A program made the translations under genes and the position numbers. A stretch of 50,335 nucleotides of DNA from a virus: UHGV virus genome UHGV-1998140; one strand, written 5' to 3'. Positions 39,531 to 47,360 of this stretch are shown here, piece by piece. A model generated the notes under the pieces. The model had not been told where the DNA came from and made no database searches. It saw only the letters and a list, made by a program, of their open reading frames with translations. Each line of letters starts with the position of its first letter. The first letter of the stretch is position 1.

Positions 39531-40226
39531 ATGAACATCGGAAAGCGAATCAGAGAACTACGCCTTGCAAAGGGCTTAAAAATAAACGACCTGGCTGATG
39601 CTTTGGGCATTGATGGCGCCAATATTTCTCGCATGGAAACAGGTAAACAGAAATCATTTACCGAACAATCCCTTAATCTTTATGCAAAGGCATTAGGCGT
39701 AGAAGTTGCTGAGCTCTTTACACCTCCCCAAAATGAAATTACTGTATATAATAACAGTATAAAACATCCAGTTCATGGAGAGGGTAGCTCGGTGTTTAGA
39801 GTGGAAATGCTTGATGTCAGTGCGAGCGCTGGTGGTGGATTTATTCAGGGCAGTGATGTTATTGATGTCATAAGGTCTATTGAATACAACAACGACCAAG
39901 CCATGACTTTATTCGGTGGCAGAACACCAGACTCAGTGAAGGTCATTAACGTTCGGGGCGACAGCATGGCTGACACTATTCAGCCTGGAGATTTGATTTT
40001 CGTCGATGTTTCAGTCAATAGCTTTGATGGCGATGGCATCTACGTCTTTGGTTTCGATGGCAAAATATATGTTAAGCGCCTGCAAATGATACCAGATAAA
40101 ATGCTCGTGATTTCTGATAATCCAAAATACAGAGAATGGGAAATCGATCGGGCTAATGAATACCGCTTTTGCGTTTATGGCAAAGTAATGATCAGCCAGT
40201 CACAAGCCTTCAAGCGCCACGGCTAA
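39531..40226 (+). CDS. cI: CI-type repressor (HTH plus S24 LexA-like peptidase domain)
   Basis: 231 aa; N-terminal HTH LKINDLADALGIDGANISRMETGK; C-terminal S24-like domain (RGDSMADTIQPGDLIFVD ... KIYVKRL). Confidence 0.9.
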   Translation: MNIGKRIRELRLAKGLKINDLADALGIDGANISRMETGKQKSFTEQSLNLYAKALGVEVAELFTPPQNEITVYNNSIKHPVHGEGSSVFRVEMLDVSASAGGGFIQGSDVIDVIRSIEYNNDQAMTLFGGRTPDSVKVINVRGDSMADTIQPGDLIFVDVSVNSFDGDGIYVFGFDGKIYVKRLQMIPDKMLVISDNPKYREWEIDRANEYRFCVYGKVMISQSQAFKRHG

Positions 40227-43650: not shown

Positions 43651-44223
43651 GTGAACCATTTAATGATCGACCTCGAAACGATGGGCAATAAGCCTGCTGC
43701 ACCAATCGTTGCGATCGGCGCTGTATTCTTCGCCCCGAAAAGCAGTGAGTTGGGCGCAGAGTTCTATATGGCCGTTAACCTCGCCAGTGCTATGGATCAG
43801 GGTGCGACACCTGACGGTGATACTATCCTGTGGTGGCTCAAACAATCATCAGAGGCCCGAGCAGCTATTTGTACTGACGATACCAGAAGCATTACATTTG
43901 CTCTCTCCGAGTTGAGTTCATTTATCAGCCGTCACTCTGACAACCCACGATATCTGAAAGTCTGGGGTAATGGTTCTAACTTTGACAATGTGATTTTACG
44001 CTCAGCCTACGACCGCGCCGGCCAAACCTGCCCGTGGCAATTCTGGAACGACTGCGACGTGCGCACCATGGTGTTGCTCGGCAAACAACTTGGTTTCGAC
44101 CCTAAGCGCAAGATGCCATTTGATGGTGTAGCCCACAATGCACTGGCCGATGCTCGCCACCAGGCAAAATACGTGTCCGCAATCTGGCAAAAGCTAATTC
44201 CAGCCACCAGCACCGAAGAATAA
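43651..44223 (+). CDS. 3'-5' exonuclease (DnaQ-like DEDD fold)
   Basis: 190 aa; N-terminal MIDLETMG acidic motif and C-terminal H-x4-D (AHNALADA) typical of DEDDh exonucleases. Confidence 0.6.
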   Translation: MNHLMIDLETMGNKPAAPIVAIGAVFFAPKSSELGAEFYMAVNLASAMDQGATPDGDTILWWLKQSSEARAAICTDDTRSITFALSELSSFISRHSDNPRYLKVWGNGSNFDNVILRSAYDRAGQTCPWQFWNDCDVRTMVLLGKQLGFDPKRKMPFDGVAHNALADARHQAKYVSAIWQKLIPATSTEE

Positions 44224-44265: not shown

Positions 44266-44475
44266 ATGGCAAAACTTATGAAAGCGAGTCAATGGGGAAA
44301 ACGCGAATTTACCAAAGACTCTATTCCGGATAATCGAACCATTAAACGTTGGGTCGAAAATGGCCTACTCACAGGTAAAATCGTCGACGGCTCTGTTTTC
44401 GTCTACGAATCTGAAAAATGGGGGGTCGACTCGATGGTTAATCATGCGGTTCGCCAGCTTATCAGTGAGGGTTAA
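44266..44475 (+). CDS. xis: Excisionase-like DNA-binding protein
   Basis: 69 aa immediately upstream of int; TIKRWVENGLL ... VDGSVFVY resembles Xis. Confidence 0.65.
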   Translation: MAKLMKASQWGKREFTKDSIPDNRTIKRWVENGLLTGKIVDGSVFVYESEKWGVDSMVNHAVRQLISEG

Positions 44476-44477
44476 CC

Positions 44478-45659
44478 ATGGCAGCAAGGCCAAGAAAAAG
44501 GGAATACCGCCATCTACCTGATTATCTAATATTTGATAAAGATCGCGGCGTTTATAAATTCACCTTAATTACAGGGAAGAAAAAGAACATTGGGAAAGAT
44601 CGGGCTATAGCCATCGCTATTGCGCGCGAATACAACCTCAGAATGCGGCAGGCAAATGCTCCGTCAGTTGAATTGCTTATCCGTGATTCTGGCGGCGTGT
44701 CGGGTGAAGCTAAACCTTTTGCCGAGCATGTTGATCACATCATGGCGCGTGCGATTGAAAATGAACGTCCGTCGCAAAATACGCTTGATGACTGGAACAA
44801 CGACGCACTAAGGGTGAAGGAATTCTTTAGCAACATACCAGCTTGCGATATTGAGCTGGAGCATGTGAACGCCTACATAAAGCATTACCACTCAGATTCA
44901 TCAGCGAACGTACAAAACCGGAAGGTCAGCTTCCTTAAAAAATTGTTCTCGTATGCGGTCGATGAATCATTGATGTTTGATAATCCTGCTACACGCAAAA
45001 AAATGCGAAGAACCGAAGAGAAGAAACGCCAGCGTCTTTCACTCGATAACTTTAAAGCCATTCGTCGGGCCGCCGAACCCTGGTTACGCACCGCGATGGA
45101 TTTAGCATTACAGACGACGCACGCTCGCCTTGAAGTGTCTAGGATTCGGTATTCAATTCGTGAACCTAAGAACGGTATTTGTGGTTGTGTATGGCTCGAA
45201 CAGCCAGAAGATGGCATATATGGAACGCTTTACATCCATCGTCAAAAGGTACAAAAGAAGGAAGCATCGCACGTTGCGATTCCAATTGGGGATGAGCTAA
45301 AGCGCATAATTGATGAAAGTAGGGATAACGTAGCTAGTCCGTTTGTTGTTCATCGGATTCCGGAGCGACAGGTTAAACGCAGTAAAGAAGTTTCACACCC
45401 AACTCAAGTTGCGCCTGACTATCTTAGTCGCTCGTTCTCCTCGTTACGCGATGAGCTAGGGCTTTGTGATCATCTTGCGATGGACGAACGCCCTACATTT
45501 CACGAGATCAGAGCCCTTGCAGCACATTTGTTTAATAGCCAAGGAATCGATCCTCAAGGCAGAATGGCTCACAGTGATGCAAAATCAACAAAGATTTATA
45601 CTCAAAACCACATTGATTGGATCGTCGTTCCACACGGGGAAATTAAATACAATGCATAA
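44478..45659 (+). CDS. int: Tyrosine integrase
   Basis: 393 aa, Arg-rich N-terminal arm-binding region, C-terminal catalytic region; 1.6 kb from the tRNA-derived att core. Confidence 0.9.
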   Translation: MAARPRKREYRHLPDYLIFDKDRGVYKFTLITGKKKNIGKDRAIAIAIAREYNLRMRQANAPSVELLIRDSGGVSGEAKPFAEHVDHIMARAIENERPSQNTLDDWNNDALRVKEFFSNIPACDIELEHVNAYIKHYHSDSSANVQNRKVSFLKKLFSYAVDESLMFDNPATRKKMRRTEEKKRQRLSLDNFKAIRRAAEPWLRTAMDLALQTTHARLEVSRIRYSIREPKNGICGCVWLEQPEDGIYGTLYIHRQKVQKKEASHVAIPIGDELKRIIDESRDNVASPFVVHRIPERQVKRSKEVSHPTQVAPDYLSRSFSSLRDELGLCDHLAMDERPTFHEIRALAAHLFNSQGIDPQGRMAHSDAKSTKIYTQNHIDWIVVPHGEIKYNA

Positions 45660-45693
45660 TGAAATTGGCCTCAAATGAGGCCAATTAGTGGGA

Positions 45694-46077
45694 TTAGGAA
45701 GCTTCTGACTTGGTCATATCAGCGCAACGCTGGATTAATTTCTCTGCAGTCTTAATTGCGGTGCTTGATTGGGTTGATGTAACAGTGTCGTTAAGTCTGT
45801 AATCACAAACTATTCTCTGATCCTTAAGCGATTGTAGAGCATACCCCAAACCAATTAAGTCTCTTTTATCAAAAGGTTCGTTGCCCTTCCAAGCATCGTT
45901 AACGAGATAGTCAATGAGGCCCTGGTGACTTTCCTTCGGCCCCATGGTCAAACACGGAAGTACGTGGTGATAGGCGCCATAATACGCACGAGCGACAGCA
46001 TTTCTGTAACCAATTTCGTCGTTACGTTTTTCACAATCTTTTGCGAAAGCGATAATCTCAGAACTATTAACTGGCAC
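45694..46077 (-). CDS. Hypothetical protein B of cargo operon (127 aa)
   Basis: GTG at 46077 with GGAGG 9 nt upstream, overlapping stop of gene A by 11 nt; contains RAYYGAYHH segment; no confident family. Confidence 0.5.
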   Translation of the reverse strand: MPVNSSEIIAFAKDCEKRNDEIGYRNAVARAYYGAYHHVLPCLTMGPKESHQGLIDYLVNDAWKGNEPFDKRDLIGLGYALQSLKDQRIVCDYRLNDTVTSTQSSTAIKTAEKLIQRCADMTKSEAS

Positions 46078-46882
46078 GCGCAGGTTCCTCCGAATGTCCT
46101 TCAAACCAGACGCTGAAAGGTTTTCCAATCAAACTTTCATTTTCTGCAAGAGAAAATGCTATATCTAGGTTCATATCAGAGAGAACATCAGAATCTTCAG
46201 TATTAACTGTCATGACATACGATGACGTCCGCTCTTCAGGGACAGAGCAGAAAGACATAGCAACAGGACCAACCTTATGGTAGCTCATGATATCCACAAT
46301 GCGATTTGCAATATCCTGGAATTCTTCATCAGTAATTCCAGTTGTACTTTTGAAAGTCGTGGATTGGGCCAGTGCTGTGGCTGCGAGGTGCTTAACCAAT
46401 TCAGCCTCCTTTTCATCTACCATACTTATCAACCTCTCAGCATAGTAGAGCGCTTTGTCAATACGCCCCAAGAACAAGTTGGCTTCCCATGCATGGGACA
46501 ACATTGTAGGCGAGTTATAACGTTCAACTAATCGATTTACCGCTTGTTCAACTTCACGAAAACTGCCGTAATCGTTAAGGTAAACTACATAATTTTGAGC
46601 AATGAGTAGGTTGTTATGCTTCAATGCTTCTTCAAAGAATGCAACAGCCGAATCCTTACGCCCAAAAGCACCATTAGCCAACGCTTTGAGATAGTCCTCA
46701 GATGCACTGTCGCGCAACTTTTCTATATCTCTTAGATATCGAAAATATTGCATTTCGGATATCGTACCCCGAGCCGCAAGTATATCGATTAATTCGCTGC
46801 TGATTTCGTTCGCTTTTAGCGCCAATTTTGGCATTAATTTTTCCTTAAGAAGCGTTAGCTCAGTTGCTTTTTCATGTAGCAA
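46067..46882 (-). CDS. Hypothetical protein A of cargo operon (helical, TPR-like)
   Basis: 271 aa, alpha-helical repeat-like composition; first gene of a two-gene operon between int and att core; AT-rich promoter region upstream. Confidence 0.5.
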   Translation of the reverse strand: MLHEKATELTLLKEKLMPKLALKANEISSELIDILAARGTISEMQYFRYLRDIEKLRDSASEDYLKALANGAFGRKDSAVAFFEEALKHNNLLIAQNYVVYLNDYGSFREVEQAVNRLVERYNSPTMLSHAWEANLFLGRIDKALYYAERLISMVDEKEAELVKHLAATALAQSTTFKSTTGITDEEFQDIANRIVDIMSYHKVGPVAMSFCSVPEERTSSYVMTVNTEDSDVLSDMNLDIAFSLAENESLIGKPFSVWFEGHSEEPARAS

Positions 46883-47272
46883 TCTTAGTAAGTCTGTGAA
46901 GAGTACACGAGGATGCTCTCGATTTCCAACGACCTGTATAACCCTAAAGGAATGTCAACTCTTGACAATTGAATAAATGCCACTTTCATCAACAAACGAA
47001 GATATCCACAGACACGCCTAATGCACAACTCTGTGGATAACTATTACTTACCCACAGAAATGTACTTTTCGCTCGGTTTGCAAAAAGTGCTATAGATGGG
47101 ACCTATTAATAACAGCAAGCAAAAACAAACTGTAAAAATTGTGGGGTAAAACTGACGTTAAGTATTTGATGTATATAGTGTGGATTTTGCATAAAGCGCA
47201 CTGTTTGTATATACAGTCGAATACACTCCAGAAGCAGTATTTACAAGGGCTCCAGCACCTTTACAGCAGTGA

Positions 47273-47318
47273 CATGGGGTGTCGGGGGTCGGAGGTTCAA
47301 ATCCTCTCGTGCCGACCA
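47273..47318 (+). other. Attachment-site core: 3' 46 nt of tRNA-Pro(GGG) (partial tRNA copy at prophage-host junction)
   Basis: CATGGGGTGTCGGGGGTCGGAGGTTCAAATCCTCTCGTGCCGACCA has the T-arm GGTTCAAATCC and acceptor 3' strand plus CCA; no matching 5' acceptor strand upstream. Confidence 0.7.
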
Positions 47319-47332
47319 AATAATCCCAGTAA

Positions 47333-47360
47333 AACCAGCCTTTTAAGGCTGGTTTTTTTA
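47333..47360 (+). terminator. Rho-independent terminator downstream of the tRNA-derived sequence
   Basis: AACCAGCC-ttttaa-GGCTGGTT stem followed by T7. Confidence 0.65.

What the first reader, a model, noticed from the sequence alone, without database searches (positions are those of the whole stretch)
46990..47075. DnaA-box-like inverted repeats upstream of the cargo operon
TGTGGATAA, an exact DnaA-box consensus, and ATATCCACA form an 8-bp inverted repeat (ATCCACAG/CTGTGGAT) 19 bp apart, with a third CCCACAGA copy nearby. They lie 120-190 bp upstream of gene A, suggesting a regulator or DnaA binding site for the cargo operon.
Basis: seen in the sequence. Interest (0 to 1): 0.4.

Follow-up and report, generated by a model that had tools for sequence, protein, structure and literature searches.

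The report
DnaA-box cluster upstream of prophage cargo
A small, strongly conserved cluster of binding-site-like sequences for the host replication initiator DnaA sits in front of a two-gene prophage cargo operon (TPR protein plus HEPN protein), so the operon's expression is probably tied to DnaA, although no binding has been shown.

Summary
The repeats are real and non-random. 47032-47040 is the only exact TTATCCACA in the window. One-mismatch copies lie at 47002-47010 and 47048-47056. Three boxes within 60 bp occurred in 1 of 1000 shuffles.

The window is the right end of a lambdoid prophage in tRNA-Pro(GGG): xis, int, then a leftward cargo operon (gene A, TPR plus a small alpha/beta domain; gene B, HEPN), the att arm, and a 46-bp tRNA fragment.

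Comparison of 17 related loci shifts the emphasis. It is a three-box layout read toward gene A: inverted box, 7 bp, box, 3 bp, box (47056-47020). Its two main 9-mers are the most conserved 9-mers in the 330 bp upstream of gene A.

Three diverged lineages lack the window's perfect palindrome but carry tandem boxes 3 bp apart. That is the arrangement shown by ChIP-seq to be bound by E. coli DnaA. One of them uses a different attachment site (ssrA).

Related phages without the cargo lack the boxes, so these are not integrase arm sites. The orientation is opposite to DARS.

A weak promoter-like element starts 3 bp after the consensus box. Binding and regulation are inferred only. This is a plausible new DnaA target of moderate interest.

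The parts
47048..47056 (+). Distal DnaA-like box, TTACCCACA (8/9). It is inverted relative to gene A's direction, where it reads TGTGGGTAA.
   Evidence: It is conserved as TGTGGRTAA in 12 or more lineages, with mean pairwise identity 0.89, the top 9-mer of the upstream region.
47032..47040 (-). Proximal consensus DnaA box, TTATCCACA, pointing toward gene A. With flanks it reads AGTTATCCACAG, the same as oriC R4.
   Evidence: It is the only exact match in the window. The flanks are shared with K-12 oriC R1 and R4. It is conserved at -204 to -208 from the gene A ATG in nearly all relatives.
47020..47028 (-). Weak third box, TTGTGCATT (5/9), 3 bp after the consensus box in the same orientation. 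Its first six bases, TTGTGC (47028-47023), are also a -35-like hexamer.
   Evidence: At the same position, L186, L013 and L182 have strong boxes (8-9/9).
47002..47010 (+). Lineage-specific fourth box, ATATCCACA (8/9). It overlaps the -10-like hexamer TATCTT (47004-46999, minus strand).
   Evidence: It is present only in the window, in the near-identical viral contigs L019 and L061, and as TGTGGATAA in Brenneria L007. Other lineages have an inverted box at -151 to -162 instead.
46999..47028 (-). Putative upstream promoter of the cargo operon: -35 TTGTGC, 18-bp spacer, -10 TATCTT. This is inferred, not mapped.
   Evidence: When the -35 is fixed 2-4 bp after the consensus box, PWM promoter scores in 14 relatives average 3.1 against a null of -1.1. 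Only 2 of 5000 resampled means reached this, but the sequences are related to each other.
46900..46929 (-). Second conserved promoter-like element, TTGGAA-N18-TACTCT (TAACCT in relatives), about 70-95 bp before the ATG.
46954..46966 (.). Conserved inverted repeat GTCAA-N3-TTGAC, which contains TTGACA. Role unknown.
46067..46834 (-). Cargo gene A, 255 aa. It has an N-terminal TPR array and a small C-terminal alpha/beta domain. No DNA-binding domain was detected.
   Evidence: Weak Pfam TPR and TPR-S hits. phrog_17809. AlphaFold pLDDT 91.6, with TPR structures as best PDB matches.
45694..46077 (-). Cargo gene B, 127 aa, a HEPN-domain protein with an invariant R30-x6-H37 motif.
   Evidence: UPF0332 name, and PF05168 on one homologue. 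pLDDT 91.9. Best PDB matches are HEPN proteins, including the HepT toxin.
44478..45659 (+). Tyrosine integrase with a lambda-type arm-binding N-terminal domain. The excisionase-like gene lies at 44266-44475.
   Evidence: It is 77% identical to the phage Flotzy integrase.
47142..47152 (+). Candidate integrase arm-type site, TGGGGTAAAAC. It marks the start of the true att arm and the boundary of the cargo insertion.
   Evidence: The same motif occurs on both sides of the core in phages Flotzy, Eeyore and Phi06, and in the other arm of E. coli J2. In Flotzy, int ends 4 bp before it.
47273..47318 (+). att core: the 46-bp 3' end of tRNA-Pro(GGG) (proL), followed by a terminator at 47331-47359.
   Evidence: In E. 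coli J2 the same 46-mer ends the intact tRNA and is repeated after the cargo module.

Best explanation
The repeats form a cluster of binding sites for the host replication initiator DnaA. The cluster belongs to the regulatory region of a prophage cargo operon (gene A, a TPR protein; gene B, a HEPN protein) inserted between int and the att arm.

Read toward gene A, the conserved layout is: inverted box, 7 bp, consensus box, 3 bp, weak box. In the window's sublineage a further inverted box follows 9 bp later.

The most likely mechanism is this. DnaA occupies the consensus box and recruits further protomers to the neighbouring boxes. These boxes abut or overlap the -35 of an upstream promoter, and in this lineage also its -10. 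Operon transcription is then set by the amount and nucleotide state of DnaA, probably by repression at high DnaA-ATP, as at nrdAB and dnaA.

Shown: the sequences, their non-randomness, their conservation, and their linkage to the operon. Inferred: DnaA occupancy, the promoter position, and the sign of regulation.
For: - The box at 47032-47040 is exact and shares flanks (GTTATCCACAG) with oriC R1 and R4.
- Three boxes within 60 bp occurred in 1 of 1000 shuffles.
- The two palindrome halves are the most conserved 9-mers in the 330 bp upstream of gene A across 14 lineages whose gene A is 46-92% identical (identities 0.89 and 0.85).
- The three-box layout scores 18-24 of 27 in 17 loci. The best of 1000 shuffles scored 19.
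- Substitutions fall where DnaA boxes tolerate them: TTATACACA in L011, TTATGCACA in L182 and L186.
- Lineages without the window's perfect palindrome carry tandem double boxes with 3-bp gaps. L182: TTATGAACA-gac-TTATCCACA. L186: TTATTAACA-atg-TTATGCACA. L013: TTGTCAACA-atg-TTATCAACA. This is the arrangement that ChIP-seq and mutagenesis showed E. coli DnaA needs in vivo (PMC11317965).
- L182 has a different att core (ssrA) and only 37% gene A identity, yet keeps a consensus box at -204. The boxes therefore follow the operon, not the integration module.
- Phages Flotzy, Eeyore and Phi06 have a related int (Flotzy's is 77% identical) but no cargo. They have the att arm but no boxes.
- No other close copy of the site exists in the 47 kb of prophage, which argues against a phage repressor operator.
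- Gene A and gene B show no DNA-binding fold.
- A promoter-like element starts 3 bp after the consensus box in most relatives.
Against: - There are no binding or expression data.
- In E. coli only 13 of 32 perfect single boxes are bound in vivo, and binding needs a tandem partner 2-3 bp away.
- In the window the tandem partner is weak (5/9; P of at least 5 by chance is about 0.13). In L012, L014 and L016 it is at background level, 2-3/9.
- A divergent pair spaced by 7 bp is not a documented DnaA-binding arrangement, and it is not an enriched spacing among box pairs in viral contigs.
- The common distal variant TTACCCACA breaks the normally invariant T4 of the box.
- The fixed 7-bp spacer, and the symmetric double changes in L186, would also fit a dimeric protein or a hairpin.
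- The promoter is predicted only weakly and is not mapped. If only the conserved TTGGAA-N18-TAACCT promoter is used, the boxes lie about 150 bp upstream of the transcription start.
- More distant A-B operons (Serratia, Mixta, Aeromonas, Gilliamella) lack boxes, so DnaA control is not intrinsic to the system.
Confidence: 0.5

Rival explanations
1. DnaA does bind the cluster, but the cluster is not a promoter operator. It works as a transcriptional roadblock or insulator between the cargo regulatory region and the att arm or host flank, or as a local DnaA-titrating site.
For: The boxes sit exactly at the junction between the inserted cargo module and the true att arm. Boxes in both orientations could block RNA polymerase from either side, and DnaA roadblocks are documented (cited in PMC11317965). 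A conserved TTGACA on the plus strand (46962-46967) points toward the boxes. The best-conserved promoter-like element of gene A lies about 130 bp downstream of the boxes.
Against: No transcript data exist. The plus-strand promoter has a poor, unconserved -10. Three or four boxes would titrate little DnaA compared with datA. A promoter-like element immediately downstream of the boxes fits an operator role at least as well.
Confidence: 0.15
2. The conserved element is a dyad-symmetric operator (TCTGTGGRTAA-N7-TTATCCACAGA) for a dimeric host or phage regulator other than DnaA. The resemblance to DnaA boxes is incidental.
For: The 7-bp spacing is invariant in 15 lineages. Conservation extends 2 bp beyond each 9-mer. 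Dyad symmetry is kept in 97% of cells. Three pairs changed on both sides, which only 5-7 of 500 shuffles reach, driven mainly by L186, where both halves changed together (TGTTAATAA / TTATTAACA). The centre-to-centre distance of 16 bp and the T-N11-A core resemble operators of dimeric regulators (own knowledge).
Against: No candidate regulator gene is linked to the operon, and there is no second copy of the site in the prophage. The half-site equals the DnaA consensus including the R1/R4 flanks. L182 abandons the palindrome but keeps tandem DnaA-type boxes. L186 and L013 gain a good third box at exactly 3 bp, which a palindrome-binding dimer does not explain. Symmetric changes in DNA palindromes can also arise by template-switch mutation without selection (own knowledge).
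Confidence: 0.2
3. The palindrome acts through nucleic-acid structure, as a DNA cruciform or an RNA hairpin that serves as a terminator, processing site or stabiliser, rather than as a protein site.
For: As RNA, 47020-47070 (minus strand) folds into a 12-bp-plus stem at -23.1 kcal/mol, z = -7.6. The A/G variation in the distal half keeps a G-U pair in the gene A sense. There is some compensatory change.
Against: There is no U-run on either side, so it is not an intrinsic terminator. Most variation is one-sided or breaks pairs (L011, L185). L182 has no hairpin. Any palindrome folds well. No Rfam family matches above threshold. The predicted promoter lies downstream of the palindrome, so the operon's own transcript would not contain it.
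Confidence: 0.07
4. The repeats are recombination sites of the att arm, that is, arm-type sites for integrase or sites for excisionase.
For: They lie between int and the att core. The integrase has a lambda-type arm-binding domain.
Against: Phages with a related integrase (Flotzy's is 77% identical) have a complete attP whose arm begins right after int and contains no such boxes. A different motif (TGGGGWAAAAC) is the one repeated on both arms. The boxes also accompany the operon next to a different att core, ssrA.
Confidence: 0.03

Closest known systems
DnaA-regulated promoters with a 'double DnaA box' (nrdAB, polA, purH, dnaA; Stringer, Fitzgerald & Wade 2024, PMC11317965; review PMC8203912)
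   Same: There is a consensus TTATCCACA with a G flank, and a second box in the same orientation 3 bp away. That second box is strong in L182, L186 and L013 and weak in the window. The boxes sit just upstream of, or overlapping, a -35-like hexamer, as at nrdAB.
   Different: The best-conserved partner here is an inverted box 7 bp behind the consensus box, an arrangement not described for those promoters. The target is a horizontally moving prophage operon rather than a replication or nucleotide-metabolism gene. Binding is untested.
DARS1/DARS2 DnaA-reactivating sequences (PMC6868365)
   Same: A three-box core with one box inverted relative to a tandem pair spaced by 3 bp.
   Different: In DARS1 the inverted boxes converge (TTATCCACT-N5-TGTGGATAA, CACA ends facing). 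Here they diverge (TGTGGRTAA-N7-TTATCCACA, TTAT ends facing) and the spacer is 7 bp, not 5. The inverted box therefore lies on the opposite side of the tandem pair.
oriC R1/R4 high-affinity boxes
   Same: Identical 11-12-mer including flanks (GTTATCCACAG). R1 and R4 are also divergently oriented.
   Different: Here the boxes are 7 bp apart rather than about 170 bp apart. There is no intervening array of low-affinity sites and no recognised unwinding element. The prophage replication genes lie elsewhere.
Prophage 'moron' with its own promoter next to int/attP (PMC3594210)
   Same: An independently transcribed cargo unit is inserted between int and the att arm. It is absent from otherwise related phages.
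   Different: Its regulatory region carries a conserved host-initiator site cluster, which is not a described feature of morons.

Membership tests
High-affinity DnaA box (R-type) | 9-mer matching TTATCCACA (relaxed form TTWTNCACA) | tested here: met
   47032-47040 is an exact match. 47002-47010 and 47048-47056 each have one mismatch.
High-affinity DnaA box (R-type) | Flanking bases as in proven strong boxes | tested here: met
   AGTTATCCACAG is identical to oriC R4, and GTTATCCACAG is shared with R1 in E. coli K-12.
High-affinity DnaA box (R-type) | Demonstrated DnaA binding (footprint, EMSA or ChIP) | not testable with these tools
   No binding data are available for this prophage. K-12, the strain used for ChIP-seq, was not examined for the module, which occurs in 54 of 5426 complete E. 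coli genomes.
Double DnaA box (in-vivo bound unit, PMC11317965) | Two boxes in the same orientation, 2 or 3 bp apart, with the weaker box typically 4-8/9 | tested here: inconclusive
   Window: TTATCCACA-gag-TTGTGCATT, 5/9, which is reached by chance about 13% of the time. The feature is clearly met in L182 (7/9 + 9/9), L186 (7/9 + 8/9) and L013 (7/9 + 8/9). It is at background level in L012, L014 and L016.
DARS (DnaA-reactivating sequence) | Boxes I and II convergent with a 5-bp spacer, and box III tandem to box II | tested here: not met
   DARS1 in K-12 is TTATCCACT-attcc-TGTGGATAA-cca-TGTGTATTA (PMC6868365). The window pair is divergent with a 7-bp spacer.
Integrase arm-type sites of attP | Motif repeated on both arms and present in functional attP of phages with the same integrase type | tested here: not met
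   The boxes are absent within about 300 bp of the core in Flotzy, Eeyore and Phi06 and from the other arm in E. coli J2. A different motif, TGGGGWAAAAC, fulfils this feature.
Phage repressor operator | Several copies of the site at the immunity or early promoters of the same phage | tested here: not met
   No other copy with at most one mismatch clusters anywhere in the 47 kb of prophage in the window.
Replication origin | DnaA-box array adjacent to an AT-rich unwinding element | not tested
   No search for unwinding-element repeats was made. Only 3-4 boxes are present, and local G+C is about 41%.
Known RNA family (Rfam 15) | Match at or above the gathering score | tested here: not met
   The best hits over 46700-47450 score 19.6-24.2 bits against thresholds of 50-88.

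The most novel reading that the evidence does not exclude
The HEPN/TPR cargo pair is a prophage-borne toxin-like or defence module whose expression is gated by the host initiator DnaA through a previously undescribed three-box operator (inverted box, 7 bp, box, 3 bp, box). The module is held down while DnaA occupies the site. It is released when DnaA is depleted, titrated or inactivated, for example under replication stress or by an infecting phage or plasmid that carries DnaA-box clusters. This would make DnaA availability a danger signal.
Probability: 0.12. Interest if true: 0.7.

Novelty: new member of a known kind. Interest (0 to 1): 0.35.

Why it matters
The experimentally defined DnaA regulon of E. 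coli is very small, with 16 bound regions, all tied to replication, nucleotide supply, repair or RNA metabolism.

A mobile prophage operon with a conserved DnaA-box cluster would be a new kind of target. It would show horizontally acquired cargo wiring itself to the host cell-cycle initiator.

The divergent 7-bp pair plus a 3-bp tandem box is also a natural test case for how DnaA protomers assemble outside the origin. The family offers ready-made natural variants with strong or weak boxes at each of the three positions.

If DnaA does not bind, the site is still a strongly conserved operator of unknown specificity in front of an uncharacterised HEPN/TPR pair.

Tried and rejected
- **Special spacing.** I tested whether a divergent box pair 7 bp apart is a recurrent architecture. 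An IMG/VR scan gave 45 loci. Most hits were unrelated box clusters, and at least one (L022) was a chance match inside a coding sequence. Idea dropped.
- **DARS-like element.** Rejected on orientation and spacing.
- **Arm-type or excisionase sites.** Rejected.
- **Intrinsic terminator.** The only terminator-like hit (47088-47064, minus strand) is A/T-rich and not conserved.
- **Known RNA family.** None.
- **Known defence system.** No PADLOC or NCBIfam hit for gene A or gene B. PHROGs gave only families of unknown function.
- **First genome-contig scan with gene A.** It found nothing, because the word patterns were too specific. The second scan, with a gene B alignment, gave 19 loci.
- **Simulations.** Two Markov-chain simulations timed out. 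A mononucleotide shuffle replaced them.
- **Promoter by consensus scan.** No minus-strand promoter reached 9 of 12. A PWM scan gave inconsistent top hits, so promoter placement stays provisional.
- **Structure job.** It was rerun without them.

Full report
**Context**

The window is almost entirely a lambdoid prophage. Its right end reads as follows:

- a 3'-5' exonuclease gene at 43651-44223
- an excisionase-like gene at 44266-44475
- a tyrosine integrase at 44478-45659, with a lambda-type arm-binding domain (Pfam PF09003)
- two leftward cargo genes: gene B at 45694-46077 and gene A at 46067-46834
- a 438-bp non-coding stretch
- a 46-bp copy of the 3' end of tRNA-Pro(GGG) at 47273-47318
- a terminator, and then GC-rich host DNA with a long leftward ORF (47678-50323), not analysed further

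No intact tRNA lies in the window, so the other prophage end is outside it.

In E. coli J2 the same 46-mer ends the intact proL tRNA and is repeated after the same cargo module. That identifies it as the att core.

**The observation**

- TGTGGATAA at 47032-47040 is the only perfect TTATCCACA of the window.
- ATATCCACA (47002-47010) and TTACCCACA (47048-47056) are one-mismatch copies.
- The inverted repeats are reported by the repeat finder as I1 and I2.
- Three such boxes within 60 bp occurred in 1 of 1000 shuffles.
- Gene A's real start is the ATG at 46834, giving 255 aa as in all homologues. The boxes are therefore 168-224 bp upstream, not 120-190.

**Which repeats matter**

I collected relatives of the operon from E. 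coli, Citrobacter, Klebsiella, Enterobacter, Kosakonia, Brenneria, Lonsdalea, Pseudocitrobacter and several metagenomic contigs. Their gene A is 36-97% identical to the window's.

Alignment of the upstream regions shows that the conserved unit is TTYTGTGGRTAA-N7-TTATCCACAGA.

The copy at 47002-47010 is confined to the window's sublineage, and occurs as a perfect box in Brenneria.

Over 14 lineages the two halves are the two most conserved 9-mers in the 330 bp before gene A, with mean pairwise identity 0.89 and 0.85. This is higher than the putative integrase arm site (0.82) and the promoter-like blocks (0.81 or less).

**Not part of the recombination site**

Phages Flotzy, Eeyore and Phi06_2987 have a related integrase (Flotzy's is 77% identical) but no cargo. 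In Flotzy and Eeyore, int ends 4 bp before the sequence homologous to window 47142 onward. They have no DnaA-like box near the core.

A different motif, TGGGGWAAAAC, is repeated on both arms and is the likely arm-type site.

The boxes therefore belong to the inserted cargo module, roughly 45660-47140.

A homologous operon with only 37% gene A identity sits next to a different core, the tmRNA 3' end. It still has a perfect box at -204.

**Is it DnaA?**

Evidence for:

- The exact box shares its flanks with oriC R1 and R4 of E. coli K-12 (GTTATCCACAG).
- Natural variants fall on tolerated positions: TTATACACA (equal to oriC R2) and TTATGCACA.
- ChIP-seq work from the Wade laboratory (PMC11317965) shows that E. 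coli DnaA binds in vivo almost only to tandem 'double boxes' 2-3 bp apart. Only 13 of 32 perfect single boxes are occupied.

Scoring for that feature showed that every lineage fits one three-box layout read toward gene A: inverted box, 7 (or 8) bp, box, 3 bp, box. Totals are 18-24 of 27 matches, against a maximum of 19 in 1000 shuffles.

Box strength is distributed differently among lineages:

| Lineage | Matches per box (of 9) | Tandem pair |
|---|---|---|
| Window | 8, 9, 5 | TTATCCACA-gag-TTGTGCATT |
| E. coli AR216 | 9, 9, 6 | TTATCCACA-gac-TTATCTCCT |
| L182 | 8, 7, 9 | TTATGAACA-gac-TTATCCACA |
| L186 | 7, 7, 8 | TTATTAACA-atg-TTATGCACA |
| L013 | 8, 7, 8 | TTGTCAACA-atg-TTATCAACA |

The last three are textbook double boxes. 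This redistribution is what one expects if the reader of the site is DnaA. It is hard to explain with a palindrome-specific dimer.

Evidence against:

- In the window the tandem partner is weak.
- In three Klebsiella-type lineages it is at background level.
- A divergent pair spaced by 7 bp is not a documented binding unit, and is not an enriched spacing in viral contigs.

**Comparison with DARS**

DARS1 in K-12 is TTATCCACT-N5-TGTGGATAA-N3-box. That is a convergent arrangement with a 5-bp spacer (PMC6868365). The window element is divergent with a 7-bp spacer, so it is not DARS-like.

**Structure or dimer rivals**

The palindrome would fold strongly as RNA (-23.1 kcal/mol).

Dyad symmetry is kept in 97% of cells, and three pairs changed on both sides. 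These changes come from L186 and L013, and 5-7 of 500 shuffles reach the same level.

This keeps a dimeric-regulator or hairpin reading alive. Several points weigh against it: there is no U-tract, no Rfam match, most variation is one-sided, and L182 has no palindrome at all.

No candidate regulator is linked. Gene A is a TPR array plus a small alpha/beta domain. Gene B is a HEPN protein with an invariant Rx6H motif and HEPN/HepT structural matches. Neither looks DNA-binding.

**Promoter**

The simple scan found no strong leftward promoter. Two candidates emerge from the PWM scan.

- The first is TTGTGC-18-TATCTT at 47028-46999. Its -35 starts 3 bp after the consensus box, and its -10 overlaps the 47002-47010 box. 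With the -35 constrained to that place, relatives score well above random positions: mean 3.1 against -1.1, reached by 2 of 5000 resamples. This result is not independent of phylogeny.
- The second is a better-conserved TTGGAA-N18-TAACCT, 70-95 bp before the ATG.

The layout then resembles nrdAB, where high-affinity boxes next to the promoter activate at low DnaA-ATP and repress at high DnaA-ATP (PMC8203912). This step is inference.

**Distribution**

The A-B gene pair is widespread, including Serratia, Mixta, Aeromonas, Gilliamella, Comamonadaceae and others. The boxes occur only in the enterobacterial, integrase-adjacent lineage. The module is present in 54 of 5426 complete E. coli genomes.

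**Verdict**

The DnaA reading is the best-supported one, but it rests on sequence logic only.

The finding is a plausible new, horizontally mobile member of the DnaA regulon with an unusual box arrangement. It is of moderate interest and is directly testable by ChIP, footprinting and reporter assays.

Noticed in passing
window 47201-47216, with the promoter-like site at 47152-47179: There is a LexA-box-like palindrome, CTGT-N8-ACAG (cACTGTttgtatatACAGtc, 16 of 20 to the SOS-box consensus), inside the att arm. It lies just downstream of a plus-strand sigma-70-like promoter (CTGACG-16-TATAGT) that reads toward the tRNA fragment and terminator. It is conserved in phages Flotzy, Eeyore and Phi06 and in E. 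coli relatives. One half is ACAT in the Klebsiella and Citrobacter relatives. The pattern occurs 3 times in the window against 0.4 expected. It could give an SOS-controlled transcript across attP, or a LexA role in the recombination site.
   Followed up: partly
window 39742-39757: A second, AT-rich LexA-type box, CTGTATATAATAACAG, lies inside the prophage, around 39.7 kb.
   Followed up: no
window 46954-46966 and 46840-46900: Two further conserved features lie in the gene A leader. One is the inverted repeat GTCAA-N3-TTGAC, which contains TTGACA. The other is a conserved pair TTGCT...AGCAA that could form a short hairpin about 30-50 nt before the gene A start. They may be a second operator or a leader structure.
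   Followed up: no
window 45694-46834: The cargo is a conserved two-gene pair with overlapping reading frames: a 255-aa TPR protein with a small alpha/beta domain, and a 127-aa HEPN protein with an invariant Rx6H motif. It is absent from PADLOC and NCBIfam and is found from Enterobacterales to Aeromonas, Gilliamella and Comamonadaceae. It looks like an uncharacterised toxin-antitoxin-like or defence pair.
   Followed up: partly
window 45660-45693: int (rightward) and the cargo operon (leftward) converge with only 34 bp between their stop codons. Read-through of either could act as antisense to the other.
   Followed up: no
L011 3000-4000 (metagenome scaffold, Citrobacter-like): Here a gtrA-gtrB-gtr(type) O-antigen glucosylation operon sits on the other side of the att core from gene A. 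This is an attP-like or tandem-prophage arrangement. In this locus the proximal box is TTATACACA.
   Followed up: no
L001 1794-3199 (E. coli AR216.2b) and L003: In E. coli the cargo module is preceded by a 3' fragment of an integrase gene. Upstream of that are a DUF2971 gene and a second, intact integrase. This suggests the int-att junction is a repeatedly reused insertion spot for cargo.
   Followed up: no
window 47380-47400: Host-side DNA after the terminator (GGGGTGAAATTGGGGTG) resembles the phage's other-arm motif (GGGGAATCATTGGGGAAAAATGGGGG in Flotzy). It may be the scar of an earlier prophage at proL.
   Followed up: no
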